Source of the DNA: a plasmid
Direction: 5' to 3' (one strand)
Sequence record: NZ_CP033968.1
Length of the DNA: 64,000 nucleotides
This document shows positions 311 to 51,687 of the stretch, piece by piece (position 1 is the stretch's first letter; each line of letters starts with the position of its first letter). The notes beneath the pieces are model-generated. The model did not search any database and was not told the DNA's origin. It worked only from the letters and a program-made list of their open reading frames with translations. The position numbers and the translations under genes are program-made.

Positions 311-341
311 ACGCTGTTTGGCGGCAGCGGTCTAACCCGCC

Positions 342-1931: not shown

Positions 1932-1982
1932 CGGATACCGCCGGCGGCCGCAAGGGGCGCCCTTAAAAGACCGCTTACGGAC

Positions 1983-3593: not shown

Positions 3594-3677
3594 ACGTGAC
3601 GTTTTTCCTTGCCCCGCTACCATCTAGCCCCTAGAATCGGCTCAAACTGCATTTTGTGACGTTTCATACTTGGAGGG

Positions 3678-5914: not shown

Positions 5915-5921
5915 CCGCCTC

Positions 5922-6826
5922 GATTTCACCGTGAAAAGCCCGCGCAAATGACGCGGGCTTTTTTTGCTCTCGACCAACTCTCCGGGCCGCCTAGAGCGCG
6001 AGAGCATTCACGGTATCCCAGCCCGGAACGGGCTTGGCCTGTCCTGCGGGCGCGGGGACTGCGCAGCGGCGAACTTACGACAACGCCCCCGGGGGGATTC
6101 GCGAGAGATTTCACCGTGAAAACTGGTTGGATCACCGCCAGCATTTCGCGCCCGAATTCTACCCAGCGTTTTCACGGTGAAATCTGCGCCGGCGCCAACT
6201 AGGGCGGGCGTTGCCCACGCGAATTGGGCCCACTTCAAATAACTCGCTCATGGGAGCGTCGCGGTGAAGATTCGCTGACAGGCCACCCCAGGTGCATACG
6301 CGCCCAGCGGCTAGATTTTCACGGTGAAAACTGCCACGGCGGCTACTCAGCTGGACGCTGCCAACGCCTTGTCCCGGAAGCGGAAATGCCGGCAGGCCTT
6401 TATGTGGATGCGCTCCTCGATCTTTCACGGTGAAAAGCGCCAGGTAGCCCTCGCTGCGCAATCGTCCAGCGGCGTGGTTTTCACGGTGAAATCCCAACGT
6501 TGATGGCCCCCTCAACGTCTCAAAAGCATCACCGTCCTTGGTGCGAGCGGAGCTTTTTCACCGTGAAAAGTCAATGGTCGCTCAATCGGCGCCTGCGGTC
6601 AGGAAGCAATTTCAAGCCTGCCGTCAGCATTCAGGGGCGAGGACGCACGAGCCTACGCCAGGCTGGTCTTCGACGAAACCGCTCGGCGCGTTGCATTCCC
6701 AGCCAAGGCGCGCTAGGAGAACGCCCAGTCTCTGCGCATTGCGCAGAGCGCACTACACATTGCGTACTCTGTGCGTCATCGCGTTTTCACCGCGAAACCA
6801 GCGGCATCACAATTTTCACGGTGAAA
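5922..6826. repeat. Array of ~9 copies of the 13-bp palindrome TTTCAC(C/G)GTGAAA downstream of parB; candidate parS centromere
   Basis: Copies at ~5924, 6108, 6169, 6316, 6422, 6478, 6556, 6783 (degenerate), 6813. Arms TTTCAC/GTGAAA are inverted repeats around a single central base. Resembles the chromosomal parS core (tGTTtCACGTGAAACa) with one inserted base. Overlapping ORFs are spurious. Confidence 0.6.
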
Positions 6827-7168
6827 ACGAACGCGATCGCCGGCCGGGCATTAGGAATACCATACAACTATTGCTACGTGTTATGTATCGCTATTGTGAG
6901 AAACGAGGAGCTAGTTGCAGTTCGCAAATGGCAGGAGAGCACACTGGGCACTTCTCCGAGCACTAGCCATTCGGTCAAACGTGATCATCGCGAGATTGGA
7001 TATCGGCTTGCCGAGGTTGCACTCAGCAGGACACCAAGAATGAACACCGGGAATTTCGAGAAAGAGGCGGGAGGTTTCGTGCCTCGCGTAGGGAAGCACT
7101 AGCAAGCTCGACGAGCTCAACCGCGCGCACTCTGGCGGCGGTCTTTCGCATGTATTGAGGAGGGCAGG

Positions 7169-8527: not shown

Positions 8528-8559
8528 TAAGAGACTGCCGTAATATCTCCGTAATGGTG

Positions 8560-9945
8560 TAATGAGTCAAGTATACGATTGCACCTTTGCGCAACACCGT
8601 TGCCAAGAGGCACCAATCAATGACACCGTCGAACCAACTGATGCCACCATGACTGAGCGCCACTCCCCGGAAACCTAGACTGGGCGCGCCTTTCCGGGAT
8701 ATACGCACATCAAGCCAACGGTTAACACCTTCCACCAATTCATTGCACCTTGGCACCAATGGATAGCACCGTAGGAAGCCAATTTCTTACACCTTTGCGG
8801 CCCAATGCGGTACACCAATCCCCCAACAGATATCACCTTGGCACCAACAGTTAACACTTTGCTGCTCGTAAGCCATTGAATTATTTAAGCAAAACGAGAC
8901 CCGTATACGTTGGTTGGTTTACGTAAACAAAGCTGCTAGCTCTCCGCAGAAAAATGCGGAACGTCAAAACCACCGGTACTTATCCACAGCCATCGGCACT
9001 TGCCGCTTCGTCACCGCGACCGCTATCGCAGTACGGTGCAATCTGTTGGACCGCAATGAGCTCCGCCACACAGAGATGCAATCAACTCGACGCAACCCTC
9101 CCTCTCTAAACCCCATGGTGCAATCAGTTGGTCCGCAATCTTCCATATCGGTATGGGTGCAATGTATTGGCCCGCAAAGCCCCAGGGGGAAAGGTGCAAT
9201 GTATTGGCCCGCAAAATCGGCGTTCACTTGCCGCTATGGTGCAACGTATTGGTCCGCAAGAGACTGGGCACATGGTGCAGTCAATTGGTCCGCAGAGTAC
9301 CTCTCAACGACATGGTGTAGTTTATTGGTCCGCAAACGGACTCTCTACCATGGTGCAATGAATTGGCCCGCAGGGGGCTAGAACCGATAGCGCAGTTCTT
9401 TAGTCCGCAGAAACCCTAGCGCGTCATGGGCCCGCTACCCCCAGGCAATATGGTGTATCTGATTGGTCCGCAACCGCACGAGTACCGGCTATGGTGCAGT
9501 CGATTGGTCCGCAACCATGGCGAATCAGCGGCGTTAGCAGCTCTGCGCAGGCTCAAACACGCGCAAGGTGGCATCCGTTGGTCCGCAAAATGTGAGGACA
9601 AATAAGCACTCGCCTCGAAAGGTGCAATGACTTGGTCCGCAAAGATTGGCCACTGATTCCAGCATCTCTTACAGCACCTGCACTGCGCAAAGGTGCAATG
9701 GTTTGGTCCGCAATTTCTCCCAGCGGGGTTCAACCGGCAAGGTTATGACAACAATTAGCGAGATCTAGCGATAGGAAGCACTCACTAAAGCTCCGCAAAT
9801 TGCGCCACGGTCCACCAAACCGTTACACCTTGCCCGCGGGAGCGGGCTTTGCGGTCCAAAACGCATCACCCTAGGTAGTGCTCCATGGGGCACCTCCGCA
9901 AACTTTTGCGGGTCTGCGGGCCAAATCGTTACACCTTTCACCGCT
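8560..9945. repeat. oriV-like iteron field: 12 direct copies of ~22-bp GGTGCAATnnnTTGGTCCGCAA plus at least 5 inverted/degenerate copies
   Basis: Direct copies at ~9115, 9154, 9193, 9237, 9273, 9313, 9351, 9451, 9492, 9567, 9620, 9690 (first seven at ~39-40-bp spacing). Inverted copies at ~9803, 9849, 9915 and degenerate inverted copies at 8560-8870. Immediately upstream of repA. Confidence 0.6.
8980..8988 (+). promoter_or_regulatory. Consensus DnaA box TTATCCACA next to an AT-richer stretch (8870-8940, candidate DNA unwinding element)
   Basis: Exact 9-mer match to the DnaA box consensus, located between repA and the iterons. Confidence 0.4.
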
Positions 9946-20629: not shown

Positions 20630-21838
20630 ATGGACATGTCCGTAGGAACGCAAGAACAAGCAATTCGCTTCATCACGCCGAAGTTCCTGGAAGGTGCCCC
20701 GGCCGGAAAGCCCAATCAGGTTGGTTTGTCGCCAGAGGTTGAATCCATGCTTGCCCGCGATGCGGTGGTGGCGGTCGGGGTCTCAGGCGGCAAGGATTCG
20801 GATGCCTGCGCTATTGCGGTGGCAAGGCACTTGGATCAGATCGGCCACAAGGGACCGCGGCTGCTGGTGCATTCCGACCTAGGCCGTATCGAGTGGAAGG
20901 ATAGCCTGCCTAGCTGCGAGCGGTTGGCACATCGATTGGGTTGGGAACTGCTGGTGGTTCGTCGGCAGGCTGGCGATATGCTGGACCGCTGGGAAGTACG
21001 GTGGCAGAACAGTGTCTCGCGGTACGAGGACATGTCCTGTGTGAAGCTCATCCTTCCCTGGAGCACGCCGTCGATGCGATTCTGCACGAGCGAAATGAAG
21101 ACACACCTCATATCCAGTGCGTTGCGAAAGCGCTTCCCGCAGGGAGACATTCTCAACGTGACGGGGATTCGCCGACAGGAAAGCAAGAACCGCAGCAAGA
21201 TGCCGATCTCGGCGCCGAACTCCGGACTGACCCGCAAGAGTGGGATTGGGATGACGTGGAACGCCATCATCGACTGGCCTGTCCAGGACGTGGTGCATGC
21301 GATCCATGATGCGGAACTCGAGCTCCATGAGGCTTACACGAAGTACGGTATGTCAAGGGTCTCATGTTCTTTCTGCATAATGTCATCCGAGGCCGATCTG
21401 ATAGCCTCCGCGATGTGCGAGGACAACCACGAGCCATACATCCGCATGGTGGAACTGGAGGCAAGGTCGTCATTTGCCTTCCAGGGGAACCGGTGGTTGT
21501 CCGACGTGGCGCCCCACGTCCTGCCGCCGTCGCTGCGAATCCGGGCCGACAAGGCCAAGGCAGTTGCGGCACAGCGACAGGTGATAGAGGCCGCGATCCC
21601 GGAACATCTACTCTATACGGCTGGTTGGCCGACGTGCCTTCCCTCGCGGGAAGAGGCGGGGCTCCTGGCTGGTGTTCGCACGGAGGTTTCGGCGCTACTC
21701 GGGCTCAACGCCCAGTGCCTCGATGCCACCAGCGTGCTGAACCGTTACGGCAGTTTGCTGGAGCTGAAAGTGGCCAAGGGCAAAGCTGGCTCGGCGGAGG
21801 ATACCTATCCCCAGCAGACGGAGCTTTGTTTTGGTTGA
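20630..21838 (+). CDS. PAPS-reductase-family PP-loop protein (DndC/IbrA-like) with C-terminal Cys-containing extension
   Basis: PP-loop VGVSGGKDSDACAIAV; TGIRRQESKNRSKMP; 402 aa; divergent from the exonuclease gene. Confidence 0.6.
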   Translation: MDMSVGTQEQAIRFITPKFLEGAPAGKPNQVGLSPEVESMLARDAVVAVGVSGGKDSDACAIAVARHLDQIGHKGPRLLVHSDLGRIEWKDSLPSCERLAHRLGWELLVVRRQAGDMLDRWEVRWQNSVSRYEDMSCVKLILPWSTPSMRFCTSEMKTHLISSALRKRFPQGDILNVTGIRRQESKNRSKMPISAPNSGLTRKSGIGMTWNAIIDWPVQDVVHAIHDAELELHEAYTKYGMSRVSCSFCIMSSEADLIASAMCEDNHEPYIRMVELEARSSFAFQGNRWLSDVAPHVLPPSLRIRADKAKAVAAQRQVIEAAIPEHLLYTAGWPTCLPSREEAGLLAGVRTEVSALLGLNAQCLDATSVLNRYGSLLELKVAKGKAGSAEDTYPQQTELCFG

Positions 21839-33269: not shown

Positions 33270-34265
33270 TTAGATGACAAGCTCGACGGTGTCTCGATAC
33301 TTGCCAAGATTCGGTGGAGCGTCGGGCACTGCGATCGCCTTCGGACGATGAATCTGCAAGGGCGTCGTATCCACGTCAGTGAGATTGAAGTCCTTTGCAA
33401 CGGTGATTCGGAAGGACTCTTTGCCTTTGCCGCGGTACGAATCCACATCCGTGTCGGTCACTACCACGCCTTTGTCAGCAAGCAGCTTTGTGTAGTCCAC
33501 TTCGCCTTTCTTGTTGGTTCTGGATAGAAGCACGCCACAGCCTTCTCGCAGCTTTTCACCAGGTGCCAACAATGCAATGAGTGCTTCACGGGCCAACTGC
33601 TCTCGTTCCTCCAACTCGTCTCTCTCGCGCTTGATAAGGAGGTAGTGAGTCGCTGCTGCTGCCCACTCATCGGACTCCCATATCCCAGACTGTACTCGCT
33701 CCCAGAAGATGACCTCTGCGGCGACAATCTGGTCAATGCGGGCCTGATCGCGAGGCACTCGCAACAAGACGCCGTCCTGGCCGTCAAACGAGTAGTAGTT
33801 CCCGTAGTCAGCCTCAGCAACGAAAATCTGTTGCTGGACCTGGTCGACGTACTCCTCAGGCACCAGGCCGCTGAGGGCCAGTTTGTGGGCACGTTCACCA
33901 GGACACTTGACCTCGAGCGGCTCGCCCGAGAACAAGTCGAAACCGTCGAACGACGCCCGAATGAACGGGTGGACGGCACTCTCGGCGACGAGGGGGGTGA
34001 CTGTGGTGTTCGTCAGCTTCTCGTACTGCGCCCGCGCAAGAGGTTCTAGGAGTTTTCCCCGCTCGCGGATCTTCTGAAGGATGGGATTGCGTTTCGGGTC
34101 GGTACCCTTACCCGTCTTATGCTTGAAAAGCTCATAAGCGCGAGTGTAGTGCGACTTTCCCATGATGATTGGGGCATCTGATGCTCCGATGCCCTTGAAG
34201 CGCCAAGCAAGCCATTCAGGTGAGCCCTGAATAGTTGCTGGCCCTGACAGGACTTGCATTGCCAT
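33270..34265 (-). CDS. YqaJ-type viral recombination exonuclease (lambda-Exo-like PD-(D/E)XK)
   Basis: GSPEWLAWRFKGIGASDAPIIMGKS matches the YqaJ domain N-terminal signature; SD AAGGAGATCTCC ATG at 34265. Confidence 0.75.
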   Translation of the reverse strand: MAMQVLSGPATIQGSPEWLAWRFKGIGASDAPIIMGKSHYTRAYELFKHKTGKGTDPKRNPILQKIRERGKLLEPLARAQYEKLTNTTVTPLVAESAVHPFIRASFDGFDLFSGEPLEVKCPGERAHKLALSGLVPEEYVDQVQQQIFVAEADYGNYYSFDGQDGVLLRVPRDQARIDQIVAAEVIFWERVQSGIWESDEWAAAATHYLLIKRERDELEEREQLAREALIALLAPGEKLREGCGVLLSRTNKKGEVDYTKLLADKGVVVTDTDVDSYRGKGKESFRITVAKDFNLTDVDTTPLQIHRPKAIAVPDAPPNLGKYRDTVELVI

Positions 34266-34573
34266 GGAGATCTCCTTGGGGTTGCCATGCCATAGCACGG
34301 CGTCTTCGCTTGACCCAAGGAGATGTCGAACGTGTGCAGCTAAGCCGCGCTGGTGGCCAACGGAGGGCCGCGCTAGAACGGCCTAGACAATTCCGGTGAT
34401 GATGTGAGAGGCATCGACACGGCGTAACGACCGGGGCTCCTGGGCGACGAAACCCGCGCCAACGTGATCCAGGGAAAACCGTTCCCGAAGCCGGGCCGAC
34501 AGAACGAGACGTAGGGGAAGTTACTGTCCAGCAGACAGCGGAAGTATCTAGCTGGCAGAAAACGTATTTCAGA

Positions 34574-42845: not shown

Positions 42846-43235
42846 CTAGTTGGCAGGTACGATCCGGAGCGTGAAGGTATCCGGAAGCTTTCGCCCGAGG
42901 ATGACGGAGGCGCACTGTCGGAATCGCTCCGACCAGGCTCCGGTTGTTCGGCGCCCGCTAGGTGCGCAGATCTTCCAGGCAGTTTCAATCTGGTCGTGCT
43001 GATCCTGAGTGACTTCGATGATCGAAGCGATTTCCTTCTCAATCCACGCGTCCGCAACTTCCACAGCGCGGCAGCGCGATGATTCGGTTCCCGCCGCGAC
43101 CCAGTCGCCGCCGATTTCGCCTAGGACTTCAAACGTGCCAAGGATTCTGTTGGACGGTACGGCATGGATTACGCGAACGACGATTTCGCCCTCGACGCGC
43201 GAATACACTTCAGTTCGCTCTACTTGGTTCGGCAT
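42846..43235 (-). CDS. hypothetical protein
   Basis: 129 aa; ends 6 nt before cassette B. Confidence 0.45.
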   Translation of the reverse strand: MPNQVERTEVYSRVEGEIVVRVIHAVPSNRILGTFEVLGEIGGDWVAAGTESSRCRAVEVADAWIEKEIASIIEVTQDQHDQIETAWKICAPSGRRTTGAWSERFRQCASVILGRKLPDTFTLRIVPAN

Positions 43236-43350
43236 CAGTTACTCCCTACGGGTTGGTTTGCAGAGGAGTAATGCGGCGCATGTGGGAATAACCGCGGTGC
43301 CGTAGTCGCGGGCAGGGGCACGCTGATGTGCAGGTGCCCGCAGGGCGGAC

Positions 43351-43620
43351 CTATCCATTGCTTCCACTGAACGGATTGGGTGCAACTCCCGGGGGTGCCA
43401 CGGCAACTTGATCTGGCAACGGCCCGGCCTCGAGCGAAGCGACAATCAGGTCGAGGTTTGCTTTCAATGCCTTTGCCATGCTGAGGCCCGCTTTGTCCCT
43501 TGTCAGGTCTAAGCTTCCATAGATGGATACGCGATCAAGGCGGTTCTCGATGGTCATCTCGCCGATGGCTACGACCTCGGACTCGTTTGCAAACGGGCTG
43601 AGCGTTTGTGAGGTGGACAT
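43351..43620 (-). CDS. small hypothetical protein
   Basis: SD AAAGGATCTGAG ATG; 89 aa; start overlaps stop of 43622..44221. Confidence 0.4.
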   Translation of the reverse strand: MSTSQTLSPFANESEVVAIGEMTIENRLDRVSIYGSLDLTRDKAGLSMAKALKANLDLIVASLEAGPLPDQVAVAPPGVAPNPFSGSNG

Positions 43621-43621
43621 C

Positions 43622-44221
43622 TCAGATCCTTTGTTCGGCCTTGCCGAGCTTTGGGGCGATCGCCTTTGCCTTGGCGACAACGTTGGTCCCGGGAATGAAG
43701 TCGTGCAGGAACTGGCCGTTTGCACTCATCAGGGGGATGAGAAGCAGCAGGCCAGCCACTGCAGCGAGGAAAGCCGGCGAAGCGATGAAGAGGAGGCAAG
43801 TCAGGGTAACCACCTTCATCGCACTTCGCAGCAGAATTTCCCCAAAGCGCAGCTTTCGGTCGGCCGCGCTGCGCGTGGCCAGTCGGAACAGCCACTTGCC
43901 GGGAGTTCCTTCCATCCGCAGCTTGGCAAACATTGATTCGTAGGCCCACCAGATGGCGGGGAGGCCGGCCATCACGTATGGCGCGATACCTCGCGCGATC
44001 GCTTCGTACCAGGCAAAAGTCAGGTGGTCAGCAGGCACACCCGCAAAGATCACCTGCAGCTGCTCGGCTGACGGCATATCCATCATCATCGCCGCTATCC
44101 ACGCTGCACCGATGGTTGCTGCGGCCACTACCGCTGCGAGGATACATGCATCTACGGCATTTGCGCCCAGCCGCCTACTGATGAGCAGGACCCTTGGCAG
44201 GACGTTTCGTTTCGTGATCAT
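43622..44221 (-). CDS. multi-pass membrane protein (RDD-family-like)
   Basis: 199 aa, 4-5 hydrophobic helices; start overlaps the nuclease gene stop. Confidence 0.4.
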   Translation of the reverse strand: MITKRNVLPRVLLISRRLGANAVDACILAAVVAAATIGAAWIAAMMMDMPSAEQLQVIFAGVPADHLTFAWYEAIARGIAPYVMAGLPAIWWAYESMFAKLRMEGTPGKWLFRLATRSAADRKLRFGEILLRSAMKVVTLTCLLFIASPAFLAAVAGLLLLIPLMSANGQFLHDFIPGTNVVAKAKAIAPKLGKAEQRI

Positions 44222-45075
44222 TGGGAATTTCCTATCGCGTGAGTAGTTGTGCTGCCCGGGAAAAGGTCTTTCAGGACCCGCTCGGCAGATTTTTCGATCC
44301 CCCGATCCGATCTGCCGCGGAGTTCGGGGCGGGGGAGGGGGAGCTTCGATGCCTTGGCTTCTGCCGGCAAACTTGGGAAGAAGACCAAGCCGGCCATCGC
44401 TTCAAGCTCAGGGAGTGAGACGACCTCGTAGGCTGTCCCGGGTTCGTTGTTGACAACGTAGGCCGCTCCCTTCTGTGCGGCTGGGTCGAAGACGACCTTG
44501 AAAATTCGGTCCGGGACCAGGACGCGCCCATTGAGCTGTTTGACCTTGGCGCCGGTGAAGAGTGGGCCGGTGATGACATAGAGCGAGCCGCGACGCTCGA
44601 CAAGGTTGCGGACAGCCATCTCGATTCCGGCAAAAAGGTGGCGGTTGTTGTCCGGGTCCTGAGCGACGATGTTGCTGAGTGTGAAGCTCTCATACCGGGC
44701 CTCGGGAGTGCTCATGTCGCCACTTGGGGCGAGGTGACCTCGGTCTAGCCCCGACCGTGCAAAGTCCGCTAGTTCGGCGCGGTCCTTGGATGGGAGGCGC
44801 GAATCAGGGTGAAACGCGTCCGCCCGCTGCAGCGATCGGGCGGCGCGAATACGCGAAGGCGTGAGATGTTCCGCCGACCAGATAGCCGCACGGCTTAGGG
44901 GCGAATGCATGACGGCGAACTCGGTAAAGCAGAGCTCCGTAGCGCCCTGCGCCAGGCGGGCGTTTGCGACGATAGGAGCCGTGCCCTGGTAGTAGCTTCG
45001 CGCGCAGGCTGGGTCTTGGGCGTACCCCGGGATTGCCAGCACGCACAGCAGGGCGGCGAGCAGGTGCGATTTCAT
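44218..45075 (-). CDS. Secreted non-specific DNA/RNA endonuclease (Serratia nuclease/EndoG family, DRGH motif)
   Basis: Signal peptide MKSHLLAALLCVLAIPGYAQ; catalytic SGLDRGHLAPSGD; start overlaps VRR-NUC stop (ATGA). Confidence 0.75.
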   Translation of the reverse strand: MKSHLLAALLCVLAIPGYAQDPACARSYYQGTAPIVANARLAQGATELCFTEFAVMHSPLSRAAIWSAEHLTPSRIRAARSLQRADAFHPDSRLPSKDRAELADFARSGLDRGHLAPSGDMSTPEARYESFTLSNIVAQDPDNNRHLFAGIEMAVRNLVERRGSLYVITGPLFTGAKVKQLNGRVLVPDRIFKVVFDPAAQKGAAYVVNNEPGTAYEVVSLPELEAMAGLVFFPSLPAEAKASKLPLPRPELRGRSDRGIEKSAERVLKDLFPGSTTTHAIGNSQ

Positions 45076-45587
45076 CGTAATCTGGTCCTCTTTGGCGGCT
45101 CGTACACAGTGCAAGGAGAGATCCCCTGGCCAATGCGTGCAGGAATGAAGTTGGCAAGTTGAGATGCGTCATCGACCCAGCCGGCCAATCCTCCGTTCTG
45201 CGCCACGTTCTGAAGGAATGCCCATTGATCGTCGGTGGGCTCCTTTCCCGGGCGCTTCACTTCCACAGCGAAGAATCGACCATCTTTCAGTTGTCCGACG
45301 ATGTCTGAGACGCCAGGGATAGAGAACCGGACAAAGCGCTTCTGATCCCCTTCGCCGTACACAGCCACGCCTGTGTTCATGCGCATGACCCAAGCAACGC
45401 TGGGATGCTGCTCGAGCAGCTCCATGCATGCCAGCAGTACTTTGGTTTCGCGCGGCGACGGCGGATCGGTCGGCTTCGCTCTCGCCGCCCGCTTCGTGGG
45501 CTTCTCCTGGGGAACCACCGGCGTGCTGGTCTTCTGAGCACGACCGAGCAGCGCCTCGTACTCCTTCTCGCTGAGCCGTTTTCCCAT
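45072..45587 (-). CDS. VRR-NUC domain PD-(D/E)XK nuclease
   Basis: GVSDIVGQLKDGRFFAVEVKRPGKEPTDDQWAFL fits the VRR-NUC signature (D...E.K...Q). Confidence 0.65.
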   Translation of the reverse strand: MGKRLSEKEYEALLGRAQKTSTPVVPQEKPTKRAARAKPTDPPSPRETKVLLACMELLEQHPSVAWVMRMNTGVAVYGEGDQKRFVRFSIPGVSDIVGQLKDGRFFAVEVKRPGKEPTDDQWAFLQNVAQNGGLAGWVDDASQLANFIPARIGQGISPCTVYEPPKRTRLR

Positions 45588-45589
45588 TG

Positions 45590-46180
45590 CTAGCCGAACA
45601 TGTCGCCAAGTTTTTCCAGTGCTTCGAGCGCTACGGGGTCGATGCTCTGGGGGCTCGCCGGCGCCGGATGCGCGGCTGGGACGGTTCCAGGGTTTGCGGC
45701 AACGGCAATGGCAGGGGGCACGATCGTGGCAGGCGTTTCCGCTTCCTCCATACCCTGCGCGAGAAGTGGTTGGATGGGCTCGACCACTGTTTCGCGCAAG
45801 GGTGGTGGTTGCTCCGCCGGCGCCTCTGCTACCGGAGACGGGGTAGCAGGACGGGCAGCCGGCCGGGCTGAAATTGCGCGGGGCTTCAGCACCCTGGCAG
45901 AGCGTCCCTTGGCGCCTCGGCGCACCTGCTTGTCGTGCGGTGCGGATTCGATGAGACCCCCGGGACCAGCCAGTGCCTCCTCAATGGCGTCATCCAATGT
46001 TCCTGCATCCCGGTGCTTGATGAACCACTGATACAGGACGCCCCGGATGAGAGGGGTTTCGGTCCGGTATGGCATTTCTGCGAGGAACTCCAGAGCCCCG
46101 GGGCAGGTTGCCTCCGCGATCACCAGGTTGATGCGCCGCTCCGGTTCGTCTGGGTCGAACACCCGGATGAGCTTAGGCAT
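45590..46180 (-). CDS. hypothetical protein directly downstream of the ParM-like gene (possible ParR-like adaptor; N-terminal RINLVI beta-strand-helix, Pro/Ala-rich tail)
   Basis: 196 aa; start overlaps the ParM-like stop by 8 nt; position equivalent to parR in parMR operons. Confidence 0.4.
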   Translation of the reverse strand: MPKLIRVFDPDEPERRINLVIAEATCPGALEFLAEMPYRTETPLIRGVLYQWFIKHRDAGTLDDAIEEALAGPGGLIESAPHDKQVRRGAKGRSARVLKPRAISARPAARPATPSPVAEAPAEQPPPLRETVVEPIQPLLAQGMEEAETPATIVPPAIAVAANPGTVPAAHPAPASPQSIDPVALEALEKLGDMFG

Positions 46181-47201
46181 CTACGGTTTCCTGTTGGCTC
46201 TGCCGCTTCATCGCTTGGCGCAGCGCCACGCCCATGCCGTAACGGCCGAAGCCATTGGCTACTGACATGCGGGGGTTGTCAAGGAGAATGCAGTGCGACC
46301 ACTTCTTCTTGATTTCCTCATAGAGCAGCGGGGCGCCACCGCCGGCCAGGATCACGCCGTGCAACTTCCGCACGTCCATGGACAGCAAGGAGTCGGCCTT
46401 GGCGTTGATCTTCTGGGCAACGTGCGAGACCGCCTTTGCAACTTCTTCGGAGATGTCGATTTCTTGACCAAACTGCAAAATCGATTTGGTCCGGATCGCG
46501 GTTTCGCACTCGATGAGATTCGAGTGAATCCCGCGGCCATCGAGAATGCGTACCAGATGCTCCGCGGCGAAATTCAGCCCTTCGCATGTGCCGGCGCCGC
46601 GTTCAACGTACTGCCCTTCGAGCATCAGCAGAAAGTCGGTCGTGAAGTGGCCGACTTCGATGACAGCCCAACTCTTCGTCCGCCCGGATGCGTCAGTGAT
46701 ATGACTCCGGATCGGGAGCCCCTTTTCGTCGAGGTAGAAGTCGCAATACGCGCCCATCGGTTGGGGCAGGACCCGCATCTCGGCCTTAACGACACGTTCC
46801 GTGACCTCTTTGAGCCGAGCTTGCTGGGAAGAGAACAAGTTCGCTGGGGTACCGATCACCAGAAGCGGCTTGTCGAGGCCCGGAACCCCCATGGCTTCAA
46901 AGCGCTTCATGGTCGAGGCGACCAACACCTGGTACTCGGGGGTGTTGATCCAGTCGTTCGACAGGCCGGCATTGGCGCCGGGGCTGCCCTGCAACCGAGC
47001 AGTGTCGCCCGTGAAGAACTGCTTTCCCTCGATTTCGACGGTTTCGATGGCGGCTCGTCGAGCGGTCGTCTCGTCGGAGATCCCGATGGCGGGCGAGACG
47101 ATGGAGGGGAAGGTGAGGGGGTAGGACTCGCCTTGGGCAAAGGCGACGGCCTTGACGGCGCTACGGCCCACGTCGAGGCCAATGATGGTTTGGGTCAGCA
47201 T
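46173..47201 (-). CDS. Actin-like ATPase of the ParM/StbA family (type II segregation or phage actin)
   Basis: N-terminal phosphate-1 motif IIGLDVGRSAVKAV, later actin-fold motifs (VIEVGHFTTD, ILAGGGAPL); start at internal ATG 47201. Confidence 0.65.
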   Translation of the reverse strand: MLTQTIIGLDVGRSAVKAVAFAQGESYPLTFPSIVSPAIGISDETTARRAAIETVEIEGKQFFTGDTARLQGSPGANAGLSNDWINTPEYQVLVASTMKRFEAMGVPGLDKPLLVIGTPANLFSSQQARLKEVTERVVKAEMRVLPQPMGAYCDFYLDEKGLPIRSHITDASGRTKSWAVIEVGHFTTDFLLMLEGQYVERGAGTCEGLNFAAEHLVRILDGRGIHSNLIECETAIRTKSILQFGQEIDISEEVAKAVSHVAQKINAKADSLLSMDVRKLHGVILAGGGAPLLYEEIKKKWSHCILLDNPRMSVANGFGRYGMGVALRQAMKRQSQQETVDA

Positions 47202-47436
47202 GAAATTCTCACAGTGCAGAGTCGAAAAGGCCCCGCAACCGGGGCCGGCCACCGATGCGCAATCCGCTGTGCGCAATGTGTACTGCTCATTGTTCACTGC
47301 AGATACCGCACCTGTTACGCGTCCGCATTTTAGAATACATAACACGTATTGACAAGACGACTGTAGCGAACGGAGAATTGCCCCCCCGGGGTTGTTTACG
47401 CAATGTGATAAGCAACCCCCAAAGGACGCTTAATAC

Positions 47437-47961
47437 ATGGTGCGTAACCAACCCCCCGAGATCGACGATTTTGCAGTTGCCCTGACCGCGGCCCGAAAGG
47501 CGGTCGAGGAGACGGAAAACCTTATCCGAATCATTGATTCAACCCTCGAACGTATTGATTCCCTGATGTACGTGATGCAGCCGTTTCAGTCCGGCCGAAT
47601 TGGCATAAAGCGGGTGTTCAGTAACGGGAGATTGCGCTGGCAAGTGCGAATCTTTCGGCAGCTCCGTAGCCGCAAGTGGGTCTCCTCGTTTGCGAGCCAC
47701 AAGGGGTTGCGGCGCCGCGTGAAGCGTTCCCGGGAGTGGGAGGCAAACTACAAGTTCCTGCAGTTGCTCTGCGATCGAGTCACCCTGCTGTTTGAGTTGC
47801 GGTCGCAAGCGGTGGACCGGCTCTGGCGTTTCTCGCATGGATCGACCCGTTCCACCAGGGCCCGAGAGGCTGCGATAAGCGACACGGTCGCCCTAGTGGA
47901 CGGGCTGCTGGAGCGGATCGAGGCACGGTTCGAAGGCGATATGGAACTTGAGGACGAATAG
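47437..47961 (+). CDS. hypothetical basic protein (Arg-rich, possible DNA-binding)
   Basis: SD AAAGGACGCTTAATAC ATG; 174 aa; terminator-like hairpin at ~47975-48015. Confidence 0.45.
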   Translation: MVRNQPPEIDDFAVALTAARKAVEETENLIRIIDSTLERIDSLMYVMQPFQSGRIGIKRVFSNGRLRWQVRIFRQLRSRKWVSSFASHKGLRRRVKRSREWEANYKFLQLLCDRVTLLFELRSQAVDRLWRFSHGSTRSTRAREAAISDTVALVDGLLERIEARFEGDMELEDE

Positions 47962-48019
47962 GCTAAGCGGGATCAATGCCGACCAAGGCCCTGGTGCAGA
48001 GACTGTGCCGGGGCTTTTT

Positions 48020-49500
48020 CTTTATGGGTAGCGAGTGTCTCGGCCGGGCCGGATATTGGGCGAAGATTGGATTGAGGCGGACGTAGAGGAGATAGCTGCC
48101 AGGCGGAGGTCCTGTGGGGAGTCGGGATTTCTGCCACGCGGGGTATTGGGCGGAGGGAGTCCTGGGCTCTGTGCGATGGGAGACGGGACTGGCTCTGGCG
48201 GGATCTCGGGTTTGGCCTGTTCTGCGGCTTTGCGTAGTGCGCTGTTCTGCGGGCGGGTGGATGGGCTGGTTGTCTCACTCTGCCGACCGGTGGTCGTTCT
48301 CTCGCCTGCGCGGGTGTCCGCCTTGTTCCCTTGTTCTCTCTCTGTCCGATTGGGCGGCCGGTGGTCCTGTGCTTGTTGCGGTGGGGCGGGGAGGTAGCCG
48401 GCGATGGCTTGGTGCGGAGTGAGCTTGGGCGCGGAGTGAGAACTTCGGTTGGCGGTGGCTTGGGTTTGGTGTCCCTCGGCGGCCCGTGGTCCGCCGGAGG
48501 CTTTGGTGTCGCCGGCGCATCAGCGCGGGCCCCGTGAGGGGCTATGGTTCTGCCGACGGGATAACTATTTGTCCTGCCGGGGCTCGTTCTGGTGGTGTGC
48601 GGGCTGGGCTTGTGCGCCCTCCTGCGTCGGGGTTGTTGCGCCGCCGTGAGCATAACCATTTGTCCTCTTCCTTCCTTGTGTCGCCGCGGGATCTCGCTCC
48701 CTGTTCTTCCTGAGAGCCGGGTGCGCTGCTGCTGTCCTGCTGCCGGGGCGGGATTGGGCTGCTCCTTCTTGCCCGGTCATCTCTCACCGGAACTGTGGAT
48801 GGGATCGAATGGATCTAATGGATGAAGGGGAGGGGCGGCCGGTGTCGTTCTGCCGATGGCGTGTCGGGGAGCCGGGTGGATCTGTCGGCGGGGCGGAGGT
48901 CTTGGGCTGGGGTGGTTGTTCTGCTGGCGTGGGAATGGTGCTGGTGGTGGATGGTTGTGGCGCTGGGTGGCTGGTTCTGTCGGCGGGGGATCGGGTGGAG
49001 CGGCGTTGTGCTGGCGGGAGACTGATGGTGTTGGTTCTGAGAGTGGCGGCGGTGCGGTGGTGGTGTCAGGCGGAGTGAGAAGTTTCGCTGGCGATGGTGC
49101 GAGAGAAGTCGGGTATGAGCTCGGATCGAGTGGGGCTGGTGTATCGGCAGGCGATGGCGTGGGTGAAGTCGGGTATGGGCGGGGCGGGGGCGGGAGATTG
49201 GCTGGCGATGGCGTGTTGCGGTGTGGTTGTTGGGCAGGCGGTTGTTTTGGCCGTGTGGGGGAGGGCTGGCGTACCTGGTGCCGTAGCCGCCGGCGCCGTG
49301 GGGGCGACGCCCGGCGAAGCCGGGCTGGGGTGTTGCCCCGGGGTAAATGTTTGGCCGGAGGGCTTCTCTTGGGCGCTCCCCTGTGGGTAAATGGTTGCCC
49401 CTGCTACCGGGTTCTATGACCGGCGTCGGTGAGTAAATGCTTGGCCGTTGCTGTTTCGCTGGTCTGGGTGCGGTGTATGTTGGTGTTGCTCTACCCATGC
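48020..49500 (+). repeat. ~1.45 kb strongly A-depleted, G+T-rich, repeat-rich apparently non-coding block
   Basis: Sampled 60-nt window at 48241-48300: A 5%, T 32%, G 40%, C 23%. Short motifs recur (GGATATTGGGCG x2, GTTCTGCCGAyGG x3, ATAACyATTTGTCCT x2, ~35-bp GGCGATGGCGTGGGTGAAGTCGGGTATG x2). The many overlapping low-complexity ORFs on both strands are explained by the absence of stop-codon-forming bases. Confidence 0.5.
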
Positions 49501-49578
49501 GTAACACGTATGCATAATTTGCTTGATTGATCTAAGTACTGTGCGTATGATGGGTATAAATGGTTGGCCACATATGAA
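49343..49578 (+). repeat. Four copies of GTAAATGnTTGGCC-like motif flanking the TAACACGTATGCAT site upstream of gene 49589
   Basis: Copies at ~49343, 49387, 49433, 49564. Confidence 0.45.
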
Positions 49579-49588
49579 GGGGTATGAG

Positions 49589-49858
49589 ATGCGTACGAAG
49601 GTGAAGGTTGGTCTGATGATTGGAGGTGTCGTGCTGGTAGCAGCGGCGATCGTGCTGGCGCCCGTGCTGCGCGACCTGCCTTGGCTGAAGTGGACCCTGT
49701 ACGTGTGCGCTGCACTGATGCTGTCCCCGCTGTTCATGGGCGGTCTCGTGGACGTGCCCGCCACCACCCCGGAAGATCCGACCTTCGAAAAGAATCGCAT
49801 CGGCGATGCAAGGCAGGACGTCTGGGGGTTCAACGGCCAAGACAGCAACAACGACTAA
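49589..49858 (+). CDS. small membrane protein (2 TM)
   Basis: SD AAGGGGTATGAG ATG; 89 aa. Confidence 0.4.
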   Translation: MRTKVKVGLMIGGVVLVAAAIVLAPVLRDLPWLKWTLYVCAALMLSPLFMGGLVDVPATTPEDPTFEKNRIGDARQDVWGFNGQDSNND

Positions 49859-49893
49859 GCGCGGCGAAACTGGAAAGGATGAAAGGGGTCGAG

Positions 49894-51687
49894 ATGAGCA
49901 AGGCTACGCACGAACAACTTACCGCGATCAACAGCGCCGTCCGTCGCCTGGTGGTCCAGGCCTGCCCGGGTGCCGGCAAGACGTTCACCCTGAGGGAGTA
50001 CGCCCTGGTGCGTCCCTCGGAGCGCATCCTGTACCTCACCTACACGAAGTCTCTCCAGACTGAAGCCGAGGGCAAGTTCCCCCAGAACGTCGAATGCCGC
50101 ACCACTCACTCCCTTGCGTGGTCGTTCGGCCGTCGCTTCAAGGACGCCGGTAAGCTGGGCGACCTGCGCCCGAGCGACTTCGCCCGCGCCTTCGGCATCG
50201 AGATCGGCTTTGCCAGTATCCTGGTGACGACTGTCACGAGCTTTCTGTTCTCCGCGGATACCGACTTCGAGCCGCACCATGTGCCGGACACGATCGCCGA
50301 GGCAGATGTCGCTGAGACCCTGAAGTGGGGCCGGCTCGCTTGGGAGGCCATGCAGGATCTCGGCCGCAAGAACGTTCCCATGCCCCATGACGGCTATCTC
50401 AAGCTGTTCCAGCTTTCGAAGCCGGACCTGTCGCGTCGCTACGATCGCATCCTGTTCGACGAAGGCCAGGACGCCAACCCGGTCACGACCTCGATCGTTC
50501 TTGCCCAGAATTGCCCTGTGGTGATCGTCGGCGACCGGTATCAGGCGATCTTTGCCTTCCGGGGTGCCGTCAATGCCATGGACATGATCCAACCGGATGA
50601 AACGGTCTACCTCACCCAGAGCCATCGCTTCGGCCCTGGCATTGCCCGGCTGGCCACGATGCTCCTCTCCGCGTTCCGCGGCGAAGAGCGACCTGTGTAC
50701 AGTGCCTTCCCGGATCGGCCGACTGGCTACACGGTCGACGTTTCCAAGCCGTACGCGGTCATCGGCCGCACGAACGCCAAGCTGTTCGACAAGGCTGTCG
50801 CCATGCTGGGCAACAAGCGTCTGCACTTTGTCGGTGGGCTCAGTAATTACCCATTTGACAAGTTGGTGGACGTTTGGAACCTGATGAGCGGCCAGCCGGC
50901 CGCCGTCAAGGACCAGTTGCTCAAGACCTTTGGTTCGCTGGAGAAGCTCGAGGAGTACGCGACGGGCGTTGACGACAAGGAGATTCTCTCCCTGATCGGT
51001 GTGGTGAAGGAGTACCGCAGCGCGATCCCGTCGCTGGTCGAGAGGATCAAGGCGGAAGCAGTGGAACAAGCAGAGCACGCTGACGTTCTGCTCTCGACGG
51101 CCCATCGTGCGAAGGGTCTCGAATTCAGCCAGGTACTGCTGCTCGACGACTTTGAAGACTTCGTCACGGCCAATGGCGAGCTGCTGACTCTGGATACGCC
51201 CGAACTGGTCCAGGAACTGCACCTGCTGTTCGTGGCACTCACCCGAGCCGAGGACGTTATCGAGCTCAACGCCCAGATGCAGGACATCATCGCGATCCTA
51301 GGGGATCGCGTGCCTGAAGCTCAGCCAACCCCGGGCGAGAGGAGCACCGAACAAGTGGGGGAGCAGCTTGGCCAGATTCCGGGTTTTGATTACGTGCCGG
51401 TTGTGTATACGTGTGATGTAGCGGAAAATGTCACACGTGAACAAAAGGCACCGGTGGTCGCGCTGGCGCAAGTGCCGGTTGGTGCTGGCACTGACATTGA
51501 GAAATCGGTGGAGCTGGCGATCCTCCGGCAAGGCCTCCTCCACGTTCCGCGGCTGGCGCAAGAGGTTGGCGTGAGCCGCGAGGTGATGGCGGATGTCATC
51601 GTCGAGATGATCCGGAAGGGCCTGCTGGCCGAGTCGCTCTTCCTGGGTAGCCCGGAAGTAGTCAGCCGGCTGCGGGTGGCTGCGTGA
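49894..51687 (+). CDS. UvrD/REP superfamily I DNA helicase
   Basis: Walker A CPGAGKTFT, DEGQD, motif VI STAHRAKGLEFSQVLL; start at ATG 49894 (SD AAAGGGGTCGAG). Confidence 0.8.
   Translation: MSKATHEQLTAINSAVRRLVVQACPGAGKTFTLREYALVRPSERILYLTYTKSLQTEAEGKFPQNVECRTTHSLAWSFGRRFKDAGKLGDLRPSDFARAFGIEIGFASILVTTVTSFLFSADTDFEPHHVPDTIAEADVAETLKWGRLAWEAMQDLGRKNVPMPHDGYLKLFQLSKPDLSRRYDRILFDEGQDANPVTTSIVLAQNCPVVIVGDRYQAIFAFRGAVNAMDMIQPDETVYLTQSHRFGPGIARLATMLLSAFRGEERPVYSAFPDRPTGYTVDVSKPYAVIGRTNAKLFDKAVAMLGNKRLHFVGGLSNYPFDKLVDVWNLMSGQPAAVKDQLLKTFGSLEKLEEYATGVDDKEILSLIGVVKEYRSAIPSLVERIKAEAVEQAEHADVLLSTAHRAKGLEFSQVLLLDDFEDFVTANGELLTLDTPELVQELHLLFVALTRAEDVIELNAQMQDIIAILGDRVPEAQPTPGERSTEQVGEQLGQIPGFDYVPVVYTCDVAENVTREQKAPVVALAQVPVGAGTDIEKSVELAILRQGLLHVPRLAQEVGVSREVMADVIVEMIRKGLLAESLFLGSPEVVSRLRVAA

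What the first reader, a model, noticed from the sequence alone, without database searches (positions are those of the whole stretch)
43351..47201. Operon coupling an actin-like ParM/StbA protein to VRR-NUC, a secreted DRGH endonuclease, an RDD-like membrane protein and two unknowns
Six minus-strand genes overlap or abut: ParM-like actin, 196-aa unknown (ParR-like position), VRR-NUC nuclease, signal-peptide Serratia-type non-specific nuclease (DRGH), polytopic membrane protein, 89-aa protein. A second (type II-like) segregation ATPase on a replicon that already has type I parAB is notable. Its tight linkage to an exported non-specific nuclease and a PD-(D/E)XK nuclease is not a described partition-system architecture. 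Candidates: an actin-driven DNA processing or defence module, or an extracellular-DNA nuclease system exploiting a cytomotive filament.
Basis: partly seen in the sequence, partly recalled or inferred. Interest (0 to 1): 0.7.

Follow-up and report, generated by a model that had tools for sequence, protein, structure and literature searches.

The report
ParMR partition operon carrying nuclease cargo
This is a second, actin-type (ParM/ParR) plasmid-segregation locus on a Cupriavidus megaplasmid. Optional nuclease genes have been slotted in behind it, an arrangement already known from IncL/M plasmids, so there is no sign of a new actin-driven nuclease machine.

Summary
The six tightly packed minus-strand genes exist exactly as described, and every domain call holds. 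They do not behave as one co-evolving machine.

- **Conserved core.** In 22 species-level relatives the conserved unit is a divergent 174-aa gene, a shared promoter, ParM, and the 196-aa protein.
- **The 196-aa protein looks like ParR.** It has a conserved N-terminal domain whose best match in the whole PDB is the pSK41 ParR ribbon-helix-helix. A variable linker and a conserved C-terminal peptide follow.
- **Candidate parC.** An array with 7/14-bp periodicity (TGCGCA-type heptads) lies between the -10 box and parM.
- **Variable slot after parR.** It holds RDD alone (11/22 loci), an exported PLD-type nuclease (3/22), NucA-RDD-p89 (pM7012), or VRR-NUC-NucA-RDD-p89 (only Cupriavidus, Burkholderia and Caballeronia plasmids).
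- **NucA plus the 89-aa protein is an independent pair.** In 54 of 56 unrelated metagenomic loci the 89-aa homologue sits directly behind an exported Endonuclease_NS gene, never with ParM. It is probably a new cytoplasmic inhibitor family.
- **Precedent.** IncL/M plasmids already show parM-parR-nuc.

Verdict: a new variant of a known kind, of modest interest.

The parts
46173..47201 (-). parM-like actin-fold segregation ATPase (342 aa)
   Evidence: Pfam ALP_N and MreB-like_C are above cutoff. The family profile hits pCBH ParM at 1e-21, pSK41 ParM at 3.5e-9 and Alp12. PHROG 'partition protein' scores 1.2e-28. Invariant D10/G12, T188-D189 and G287-G288, positions I read from my own knowledge as the actin-fold nucleotide-binding motifs, are seen in 22 homologues. 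The ATG at 47201 is supported by the family alignment and by the promoter lying downstream of the alternative GTG at 47345.
45590..46180 (-). parR-like centromere-binding adaptor (196 aa)
   Evidence: It always directly follows ParM in the 22 relatives whose ParM is at least 39% identical. The architecture is a conserved N-terminal 75 aa, a variable Pro/Ala linker and a conserved C-terminal peptide IDxxALxALxxLDxMF. The N-terminal profile's best hit in the whole PDB is 2q2k_A, the pSK41 ParR RHH-DNA complex, at E 0.013. The AF2 model was low confidence (pLDDT 47), but its secondary structure is strand-helix-helix.
47251..47312 (-). candidate parC: about 7 degenerate tandem heptads (TGCGCA-type, strongest at 14-bp spacing) in the parM leader
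   Evidence: Autocorrelation at lags 7, 14 and 21 gives z = 3.7-5.8 in the window, pBVIE01, Cupriavidus TMH.W2 and two Pseudomonas plasmids. The position is the same in each while the sequence drifts. pM7012 shows clean TGCGCAG repeats on reading its sequence. TRF found no array in the window, so the evidence is comparative.
47327..47355 (-). parM operon promoter (-35 TTGTCA at 47355-47350, 17-nt spacer, -10 TAAAAT at 47332-47327)
   Evidence: Promoter scan, 10 of 12 matches. The block TTGTCAATACGTGTTATGTATCnTAgAAT is almost invariant from Cupriavidus to Pseudomonas plasmids.
47349..47378 (+). divergent promoter-like site for the 174-aa gene, sharing the -35 region with the parM promoter
   Evidence: Promoter scan, 10 of 12 matches.
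47437..47961 (+). conserved divergent 174-aa gene of unknown function (up174)
   Evidence: It is co-conserved with ParM and ParR in Cupriavidus, Burkholderia, Pseudomonas, Noviherbaspirillum, Herbaspirillum, Piscinibacter and Methylibium. It has no Pfam, PHROG, PADLOC or PDB match.
45072..45587 (-). stand-alone VRR-NUC (PD-(D/E)XK) nuclease, lineage-specific insert
   Evidence: Pfam 23.5 bits against a cutoff of 23.8. PDB 4qbo 'Nuclease' at E 0.0036 with D...EVK aligned. PHROG endonuclease at 3e-14 and Holliday junction resolvase at 7.7e-5. It is present in only 8 related plasmids in PLSDB and absent from pM7012, RPME01 and the Pseudomonas plasmids.
44218..45075 (-). exported Serratia/Anabaena-type non-specific endonuclease (NucA-like, 285 aa; signal peptide about 45019-45075)
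   Evidence: Pfam Endonuclease_NS at 9.5e-42. It aligns to EXOG, EndoG, Anabaena NucA and Serratia nuclease with DRGH and SN...N conserved. The N-terminus is hydrophobic and signal-like, and the mature protein has pI 8.9.
43622..44221 (-). RDD-family polytopic membrane protein, the most frequent third gene of this ParMR family
   Evidence: Pfam RDD at 7.7e-14. An RDD gene follows parR in 11 of 22 species-level loci and in RPME01 and the Pseudomonas contigs, with no nuclease present.
43351..43620 (-). 89-aa acidic protein, the cognate partner of the NucA-type nuclease (candidate cytoplasmic inhibitor)

Best explanation
The locus is a type II (ParM/ParR/parC) partition cassette. It acts as a second, accessory segregation system for a conjugative Cupriavidus megaplasmid that also has parAB next to rep.

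**Proposed mechanism of the core (inferred).** ParR (the 196-aa protein) binds, through an N-terminal ribbon-helix-helix domain, to the heptad array in the parM leader. This both autoregulates the strongly conserved promoter and forms the segrosome. The conserved C-terminal peptide of ParR captures the ends of ATP-dependent ParM filaments, which push sister plasmids apart.

**Downstream genes.** These ride on the same transcript in a variable slot.
- The RDD membrane protein is the commonest occupant.
- In the Burkholderiaceae plasmids the slot additionally acquired an autonomous two-gene module: a Sec-exported non-specific endonuclease NucA plus a small acidic cytoplasmic partner (p89). The partner probably neutralises any nuclease that folds before export, by analogy with NucA/NuiA.
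- A stand-alone VRR-NUC, a structure-specific nuclease resembling a Holliday-junction resolvase, was also acquired.

The nucleases are co-expressed cargo, possibly helping plasmid maintenance as reported for IncL/M nuc. They are not mechanically coupled to the actin filament.

**Shown here:** gene content, domain identities, modular presence and absence, NucA-p89 linkage, and the periodic array.

**Inferred:** DNA binding, filament function, inhibition, and co-transcription.
For: **ParM identity.** Pfam families are above cutoff. Profile hits are to plasmid-segregation ParMs: pCBH at 1e-21 and pSK41 at 3.5e-9. PHROG 'partition protein' scores 1e-28.

**ParR identity.** Its position directly after ParM is invariant in 22 loci. 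It has the three-part architecture. The top PDB hit of the N-terminal profile is pSK41 ParR RHH at E 0.013.

**parC.** A conserved promoter is followed by arrays with 7/14/21-nt periodicity, z 3.7-5.8, in five plasmids.

**Modularity.** Among 22 species-level loci, RDD is present in 11, a PLD nuclease in 3, and Endonuclease_NS in 2. pM7012 lacks VRR-NUC. RPME01 and the Pseudomonas plasmids have RDD only.

**NucA-p89 autonomy.** The two are adjacent in 54 of 56 loci without any par gene. This holds in unrelated contigs and in a Rhodoferax plasmid, and p89 homologues occur in 52 plasmid records of many genera.

**Dispensability.** pMOL30 shares the replicon type but lacks window positions from about 38.5 to 49.4 kb, including this operon.

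**Precedent.** The IncL/M parM-parR-nuc operon is documented (PMC8125031).

**Operon structure.** The genes have overlapping or abutting junctions and no internal terminator.
Against: - The ParR assignment rests on a marginal E-value (0.013) and on architecture. The AF2 model was unreliable (pLDDT 47).
- The heptad array in this particular plasmid is degenerate, and TRF does not call it.
- Exported nucleases of two non-homologous families occupy the same slot in this ParM family. A PLD nuclease also follows an unrelated ParMR in IncL/M plasmids. This recurrence hints at a real functional link rather than pure hitch-hiking.
- RDD sits between NucA and p89, which a simple cassette-insertion history does not explain.
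- No experiment here shows stabilisation, export or inhibition.
Confidence: 0.7

Rival explanations
1. Exported nucleases are genuine accessory components of type II partition or stability operons. ParMR loci repeatedly recruit a periplasmic or secreted DNase, and here also a membrane RDD protein, because it raises plasmid persistence. It could do this by destroying incoming or competing DNA or extracellular DNA, or by an unknown effect on segregation, as reported for nuc of pCTX-M3.
For: - In pCTX-M3, nuc lies just downstream of the ParR homologue and was reported to contribute to stabilising unstable vectors (PMC8125031, citing Mierzejewska 2007).
- pEL60 shows ParM-ParR-PLD nuclease directly.
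- Within this ParM family the same slot holds either Endonuclease_NS or a signal-peptide PLD nuclease.
- The PLD nucleases are 38% identical, while the two ParMs are not detectably similar by BLASTP. The association has therefore arisen with different partners.
Against: - Seventeen of the 22 species-level relatives of this ParMR carry no recognised nuclease in the slot.
- NucA-p89 is overwhelmingly found away from any par locus.
- No enrichment statistic against a matched background was computed.
- R64 nuc inactivation had no effect on transfer (PMC8125031).
Confidence: 0.25
2. The six genes form one integrated machine in which a cytomotive actin-like filament drives or positions nucleases, as an actin-driven DNA-processing or anti-phage/anti-plasmid defence module or an extracellular-DNA nuclease system.
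For: The genes are tightly coupled on one strand under one promoter. Two nucleases and a membrane protein sit in one operon with an ATPase.
Against: - The genes are not co-conserved.
- ParM and ParR have the hallmarks of an ordinary segregation pair.
- NucA is exported and travels with its own partner independently of ParM.
- There are no PADLOC matches.
- pMOL30, with the same replicon type, lacks the block.
Confidence: 0.04
3. The block is part of a conjugative leading-region-like gene set that is expressed early in a new host. ParMR, the nucleases and neighbours such as a UvrD-like helicase, a YqaJ exonuclease, a SAM methyltransferase and a PAPS-reductase-like protein mainly serve plasmid establishment or anti-defence after transfer, rather than steady-state segregation.
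For: - The surroundings are a long run of small, mostly unannotated genes together with a UvrD-like helicase, a YqaJ-type exonuclease, an orphan methyltransferase and a PAPS-reductase-family protein.
- This synteny is shared by Pseudomonas, Herbaspirillum, Burkholderia and Methylibium megaplasmids.
- In pEL60, ParMR-nuc lies just before the antirestriction and ssb genes and oriT/mob.
- R1 ParM/ParR are reported to enhance conjugative transfer (PMC4949242, title and abstract only).
Against: oriT and the transfer direction were not located in this plasmid, and no expression data exist. This reading is compatible with the best explanation rather than exclusive of it.
Confidence: 0.15

Closest known systems
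ParMRC type II partition loci, pSK41 / pCBH lineage (and the R1 paradigm)
   Same: An actin-fold ATPase is followed by a small adaptor with an RHH-like N-terminus, a disordered linker and a conserved C-terminal tail. A repeat array lies at the autoregulated promoter upstream of parM. The closest solved relatives are pCBH ParM, pSK41 ParM and pSK41 ParR.
   Different: - Sequence identity to any characterised ParM or ParR is very low.
- The repeats are degenerate 7-bp units placed downstream of the -10 box, rather than flanking the promoter.
- A divergently transcribed 174-aa gene is conserved with the pair.
- Extra genes are co-transcribed.
IncL/M parM(parA)-parR(parB)-nuc operon (pCTX-M3, pEL60)
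   Same: A ParM/ParR pair is followed immediately by an exported nuclease gene in the same operon, on a plasmid backbone. The nuclease is reported to contribute to stabilisation (PMC8125031).
   Different: - The nuclease here is Endonuclease_NS (a ββα-Me, DRGH enzyme), not PLD-type.
- The ParMs are not detectably similar by BLASTP.
- This operon also has VRR-NUC, RDD and a nuclease partner protein.
- Noviherbaspirillum members of this ParM family do carry the PLD type.
Anabaena NucA / NuiA nuclease-inhibitor pair
   Same: An exported Serratia-family non-specific nuclease is encoded next to a small cytoplasmic protein. The small protein is acidic. The NucA/NuiA paradigm is described in PMC13522737 and PMC2790893.
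   Different: p89 shows no sequence or fold similarity to NuiA or to any PDB entry. Inhibition is untested. In this plasmid an RDD gene separates the pair.
Stand-alone bacterial/viral VRR-Nuc proteins (Holliday-junction-resolvase-like; PMC4103454)
   Same: It has a single PD-(D/E)XK VRR-NUC domain with D...EVK intact, and its best PDB match is 4qbo.
   Different: It carries an N-terminal basic extension of about 50-70 aa. Its Pfam score is just below the gathering cutoff, and its substrate is unknown.
Plasmids with dual (type I + type II) partition systems, e.g. Shigella pINV (PMC6519299)
   Same: parAB next to rep, plus a separate ParM/ParR locus, on one large low-copy plasmid.
   Different: The host and plasmid family are different, and the contribution of each system here is unknown. 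pMOL30 manages without the type II locus.

Membership tests
Type II ParMRC partition system | Actin-fold ATPase (ParM) with intact nucleotide-binding motifs | tested here: met
   ALP_N scores 48.7 bits and MreB-like_C 44.4 bits, both above cutoff. PDB profile hits are to ParMs. D10, G12, T188-D189 and G287-G288 (read as these motifs from my own knowledge) are invariant in the family alignment.
Type II ParMRC partition system | Adaptor ParR encoded directly downstream, with an N-terminal RHH DNA-binding domain and a C-terminal ParM-binding tail | tested here: inconclusive
   Position and three-part architecture are met. The best PDB hit is pSK41 ParR RHH, but at E 0.013. The AF2 model has pLDDT 47 and could not be used for a fold search.
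Type II ParMRC partition system | Centromere parC made of tandem repeats at or near the parM promoter | tested here: inconclusive
   Periodicity at 7, 14 and 21 nt gives z 3.7-5.8 in five related plasmids at the same position. The array in the window is degenerate and TRF does not call it. Binding was not tested.
Type II ParMRC partition system | ParM polymerisation and plasmid stabilisation | not testable with these tools
   This needs stability assays and in vitro polymerisation.
IncL/M-type parM-parR-nuc operon | Exported nuclease gene in the same operon downstream of parR | tested here: met
   NucA with a signal peptide lies two genes after parR, with overlapping junctions.
IncL/M-type parM-parR-nuc operon | Nuclease of the PLD (Nuc) family and ParM/ParR homologous to the IncL/M proteins | tested here: not met
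   The window's nuclease is Endonuclease_NS. The window ParM against pEL60 ParM gives BLASTP E 0.48.
Serratia/Anabaena non-specific nuclease family (Endonuclease_NS) | ββα-Me domain with the DRGH catalytic motif and the Mg-binding Asn | tested here: met
   Pfam 143.6 bits. The alignment to EXOG, NucA and Serratia nuclease shows RGH and SN...NN conserved.
NucA/NuiA-type nuclease-inhibitor pair | Small cytoplasmic partner gene obligately adjacent to the nuclease gene | tested here: met
   Adjacent in 54 of 56 loci. The partner has no signal peptide, while the nuclease has one in at least 46 of 54 cases.
NucA/NuiA-type nuclease-inhibitor pair | Homology of the partner to NuiA | tested here: not met
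NucA/NuiA-type nuclease-inhibitor pair | Inhibition of the nuclease by the partner | not testable with these tools
   This needs co-expression rescue and an in vitro DNase assay.
VRR-NUC (PD-(D/E)XK) nucleases | VRR-NUC domain with the catalytic D...(D/E)xK | tested here: met
   The Pfam score of 23.5 bits is just under the 23.8 cutoff. Support comes from 4qbo at E 0.0036 with D and EVK aligned and from PHROG families at 3e-14 and 7.7e-5.
PRTRC system (protein D) | Score above the TIGR03739 cutoff | tested here: not met
   68 bits against a cutoff of 214.8.
Known anti-phage defence systems (PADLOC) | Any component matching a defence-system model | tested here: not met
   No hits for the seven proteins at E <= 0.01.
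RDD family membrane proteins | RDD domain, polytopic | tested here: met
   Pfam 52.6 bits against a cutoff of 24.1.

The most novel reading that the evidence does not exclude
Type II (ParM/ParR) partition operons have a recurrent envelope-directed accessory arm. An RDD membrane protein is a conserved third gene. Exported DNases of at least two non-homologous families (Endonuclease_NS with a previously unrecognised inhibitor-like partner, and PLD-type Nuc) have been recruited independently to the same slot. The PLD type has also been recruited to an unrelated ParMR in IncL/M plasmids. This would mean the nuclease and membrane components contribute functionally to plasmid persistence, through establishment, exclusion of competing DNA, or segregation itself, rather than being passengers.
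Probability: 0.2. Interest if true: 0.6.

Novelty: new variant of a known kind. Interest (0 to 1): 0.37.

Why it matters
- **It demystifies the locus.** The actin-like gene belongs to an ordinary second ParMRC-type partition system of a widespread Burkholderiales/Pseudomonas megaplasmid backbone. It is not part of a new nuclease machine.
- **A new protein family.** An unannotated family of about 85 aa (813 representatives at 50% identity) is almost always encoded directly after exported Serratia-type nucleases. It is a strong candidate for a new nuclease inhibitor, which could be useful for expressing such nucleases.
- **A testable recurrence.** Exported nucleases recur behind ParMR pairs, and an RDD membrane protein is a frequent third gene. 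This makes the old, unexplained observation that IncL/M nuc helps plasmid stability testable in a second system.

Tried and rejected
- **AF2 of the 196-aa protein.** With a 9-sequence alignment the model had pLDDT 47, too poor for a fold search.
- **Tandem Repeats Finder** on 47150-47500 found nothing, so the parC evidence had to come from comparative periodicity.
- **Rfam** on 43000-50000 gave only a chance snoRNA hit at E 0.43.
- **PADLOC** gave no hits.
- **NCBIfam** gave only a sub-threshold PRTRC_D hit for ParM, so PRTRC membership was rejected.
- **The afdb50 fold library** was unavailable.
- **The divergent 174-aa protein** had no Pfam, PHROG, PADLOC or PDB hit.
- **tblastn with an RDD protein** against plasmids was unproductive, returning only the near-identical Methylibium RPME01 copy.
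- **pCTX-M3 (AF550415) and pOXA-48 (JN626286)** are not in the plasmid collection, so pEL60 was used instead.
- **The Chi-site array idea** for the A-poor region. GCTGGCG is enriched and strand-specific, but this is not separable from the G/T composition, so it was left unexplained.
- **A Holliday-junction-resolvase role for VRR-NUC** is only inferred from family knowledge (PMC4103454).

Full report
**1. Observation**

The window is part of a conjugative Cupriavidus megaplasmid. Positions 43351-47400 are 100% identical to C. metallidurans BS1 plasmid p1 (364 kb, MOBP/MPF_F) and are nearly identical in three other Cupriavidus plasmids.

- The ParM-like protein (46173-47201) matches Pfam ALP_N and MreB-like_C above their cutoffs.
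- The Endonuclease_NS protein (44218-45075) scores 9.5e-42.
- The RDD protein (43622-44221) scores 7.7e-14.
- VRR-NUC (45072-45587) scores 23.5 bits against a cutoff of 23.8. It is backed by a PDB match to the VRR-Nuc structure 4qbo, with the D...EVK residues aligned, and by PHROG endonuclease and resolvase families.
- The 196-aa and 89-aa proteins match no family.

The junctions are an 8-nt overlap, a 2-nt gap, two ATGA overlaps and a 1-nt gap. No terminator-like site lies inside the block. A type I parA/parB pair lies next to a Rep3-type rep gene at 3678-8527. Only the 3' limit is open, because the next minus-strand terminator-like hairpin is at 40099-40076.

**2. What is conserved and what is not**

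A search with ParM found 171 relatives. A profile scan of one genome per species returned 80 loci. I searched these with all the window's proteins.

In the 22 loci whose ParM is at least about 39% identical, two neighbours are always there. These loci come from Cupriavidus, Pseudomonas, Noviherbaspirillum, Herbaspirillum, Achromobacter/Bordetella and Piscinibacter; Burkholderia and Caballeronia relatives are known from plasmid records. The first constant neighbour is a homologue of the 196-aa protein directly downstream. The second, in most loci, is a homologue of the 174-aa gene transcribed divergently upstream (47437-47961).

The genes after the 196-aa protein vary.
- VRR-NUC plus NucA plus RDD plus p89 occur only in Cupriavidus, Burkholderia and Caballeronia plasmids where ParM is at least about 73% identical.
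- Burkholderia pM7012 has NucA-RDD-p89 without VRR-NUC.
- Methylibium RPME01, Piscinibacter, one Noviherbaspirillum and all the Pseudomonas megaplasmids have RDD alone.
- Three Noviherbaspirillum loci have a PLD-family protein with a signal peptide.
- The rest have none of these.

Among the 22 species-level loci, RDD is present in 11, PLD in 3, Endonuclease_NS in 2 and VRR-NUC in 2. pMOL30 shares the replicon cluster and the flanking genes but lacks window positions from about 38.5 to 49.4 kb altogether. The six genes are therefore not a co-evolving unit. The unit is up174, the shared promoter, ParM and the 196-aa protein.

**3. The core is a ParMRC-type partition locus**

The ParM family profile hits plasmid-segregation ParMs in the PDB: pCBH ParM at 1e-21, a second putative plasmid-segregation ParM entry (6izr) at 1.8e-20, Desulfitobacterium cParM, pSK41 ParM at 3.5e-9, and Alp12. 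The PHROG family 'partition protein' scores 1e-28. Invariant positions that I read, from my own knowledge of actin-fold ATPases, as the nucleotide-binding residues are conserved.

The 196-aa protein has a conserved N-terminal domain of about 75 aa, a hypervariable Pro/Ala-rich linker, and a conserved C-terminal amphipathic peptide, IDxxALxALxxLDxMF. This is the ParR plan. A 21-sequence profile of the N-terminal domain, searched against every PDB sequence, has 2q2k_A as its best hit at E 0.013, aligned over the strand and both helices. 2Q2K is the pSK41 ParR ribbon-helix-helix domain bound to centromere DNA (PMC3074162). The AF2 model was unreliable (pLDDT 47), although its secondary structure is strand-helix-helix followed by a C-terminal helix. 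I treat the ParR assignment as probable, not proven.

Upstream, a sigma-70-like promoter (-35 at 47355-47350, -10 at 47332-47327) shares its -35 region with a divergent promoter-like site for up174. The block TTGTCAATACGTGTTATGTATCnTAgAAT is almost invariant from Cupriavidus to Pseudomonas plasmids.

Between the -10 box and the parM start, each plasmid has its own array of about 7-bp units. pM7012 has TGCGCAG repeats and pBVIE01 has TGCGCAT/TGCACAT/AGCGCAT. In the window, CTGCAG, TGAGCA, TGCGCA and TGCGCA lie at exact 14-bp spacing (47254-47302). Autocorrelation at lags 7, 14 and 21 gives z = 3.7-5.8 in five plasmids. TRF does not call the degenerate array in the window. A repeat array that keeps its position while its sequence drifts along with the adaptor is what a parC centromere and operator looks like.

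**4. NucA and the 89-aa protein form an autonomous module**

The 89-aa protein has many homologues of about 84 aa. In two unrelated contigs the homologue lies about 20 nt behind an Endonuclease_NS gene.

A scan of metagenome contigs found 234 loci, of which 80 were fetched. Of the 56 with at least 900 nt of upstream sequence, 54 have a NucA homologue directly upstream on the same strand. None has ParM, ParR, VRR-NUC or RDD. The same pair is on a Rhodoferax plasmid, and p89 homologues occur in 52 plasmid records from alpha-, beta-, gamma-, delta- and epsilon-proteobacteria.

The nucleases carry signal peptides in at least 46 of 54 cases, and p89 does not. p89 is acidic (family median pI 4.7), while the mature NucA is basic (pI 8.9).

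The most economical reading is a cytoplasmic inhibitor that protects the producer from nuclease that folds before export. That is the logic of Anabaena NucA/NuiA (PMC13522737, PMC2790893), carried out by an unrelated protein. This is an inference from gene context, not a demonstration. Why RDD lies between the two genes in the megaplasmids remains unexplained.

**5. Comparison with what is known**

A ParM/ParR pair followed by an exported nuclease has been described. In IncM plasmid pCTX-M3 the ParM/ParR homologues (there named parA-parB) are followed by nuc, which was reported to help stabilise unstable vectors (PMC8125031, citing Mierzejewska et al. 2007). I saw the same order directly in the related pEL60: ParM, a partitioning/stability protein, then a phospholipase D family protein.

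That Nuc is 38% identical to the PLD protein that follows ParMR in Noviherbaspirillum. The IncL/M ParM and the window's ParM are not detectably similar by BLASTP.

Large plasmids with both type I and type II partition systems are also known (PMC6519299). Stand-alone VRR-Nuc proteins resemble Holliday-junction resolvases (PMC4103454). Such an activity would suit a plasmid maintenance region, but it is untested here. The ParM scores far below the PRTRC_D cutoff, and none of the seven proteins scanned matches a PADLOC defence model.

**6. Interpretation**

Best explanation (about 0.7): this is an accessory type II partition cassette whose transcript also carries modular cargo. The cargo is RDD, the commonest third gene, and in Burkholderiaceae plasmids a NucA-inhibitor module and a VRR-NUC nuclease.

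Main rival (about 0.25, and not fully exclusive): exported nucleases are recruited to ParMR operons because they add to plasmid persistence. The evidence for this is that two non-homologous exported nucleases occupy one slot in this family, and that a PLD nuclease follows an unrelated ParMR in IncL/M plasmids. I did not compute an enrichment against a matched background, so this remains a hint.

**7. Novelty and score**

This is a new variant of a known kind. The partition core is ordinary. The combination with Endonuclease_NS, VRR-NUC and RDD is new in detail but not in principle. The most useful by-products are the p89 family as a candidate new nuclease inhibitor, RDD as a recurrent third gene of a ParMR family, and a conserved A-depleted non-coding element next to the locus (listed under things noticed). 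Interest is about 0.37.

Noticed in passing
window 47970-49500: A non-coding stretch of about 1.5 kb has extreme strand asymmetry: the + strand is A 10%, G 43%, T 25%, with GC skew +0.31 and AT skew -0.45. The equivalent gap between the up174 homologue and the small gene plus UvrD-like helicase has the same A-depleted composition in pM7012, RPME01, pBVIE01, Cupriavidus TMH.W2 and Piscinibacter, and more weakly in Pseudomonas. GCTGGCG and CTGGCGG are about 5-6 times over-represented and occur on one strand only. Only 48475-48669 is conserved at the nucleotide level with Burkholderia plasmids. There is no Rfam hit. pMOL30 lacks this region together with the ParM operon. Its function is unknown. 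The two long minus-strand ORFs here (47973-48659 and 48815-49507) are explained by T depletion of that strand.
   Followed up: partly
window 47437-47961 (+): A 174-aa protein with no detectable family is divergently transcribed from a promoter that shares its -35 region with the parM promoter. It is co-conserved with ParM/ParR across genera. Its 5' leader has a conserved C-run followed by ACGCTTAA(T/A)AC just before the ATG. It may be a further component or regulator of the partition locus.
   Followed up: partly
window 47225-47246 (-): A G+C-rich hairpin (GGCCCCG-GTTG-CGGGGCC) followed by TTTT lies in the parM leader, between the heptad array and the parM ribosome-binding site, in the sense orientation. 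It falls below the terminator scan's T-run threshold and is not clearly conserved in pBVIE01 or TMH.W2.
   Followed up: no
L011 8025-9048, L016 8025-9039, L038 8025-8963: Noviherbaspirillum plasmids carry two tandem ParR-like genes after ParM. In L011 and L016 the ORFs were read: a short copy (about 130 aa) that lacks the C-terminal peptide, then a full-length copy (about 200 aa). In L038 only two tblastn segments plus a single full-length 196-aa ORF (8373-8963) were seen.
   Followed up: no
L016 9218-9850: The PLD-type nuclease downstream of ParMR in an uncultured Noviherbaspirillum MAG is split into two ORFs (123 and 72 aa). This is either a pseudogene or an assembly error.
   Followed up: no
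L090 (Rhodoferax ferrireducens plasmid) 4477-8776: A NucA-p89 pair lies next to two bactofilin genes annotated as 'polymer-forming cytoskeletal protein'. This is a second case of a nuclease near a cytoskeletal gene and is probably coincidental.
   Followed up: no
window 1-9000 compared with NZ_CP037902.1: The window is not collinear with the 100%-matching reference plasmid around rep/parAB. The IS66 transposase (342-1931, +), parA/parB (3678-5914) and rep (7169-8527) lie in a different order and orientation from that predicted by the record. This points to an IS66-associated rearrangement or a different source plasmid.
   Followed up: no
window ~20600-52000: The ParM locus sits in a long, mostly same-strand run of small unannotated genes. 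The run also contains a PAPS-reductase-family protein (20630-21838), a SAM methyltransferase, a YqaJ/lambda-exonuclease-like protein (33270-34298) and a UvrD-like helicase (49879-51687). This synteny is shared with Pseudomonas, Herbaspirillum, Burkholderia and Methylibium megaplasmids and resembles a conjugative leading region. oriT was not located.
   Followed up: partly
P0172, P0173, P0188, P0210 and others: Some members of the p89 family are tandem duplications of about 150-165 aa with two matched stretches.
   Followed up: no
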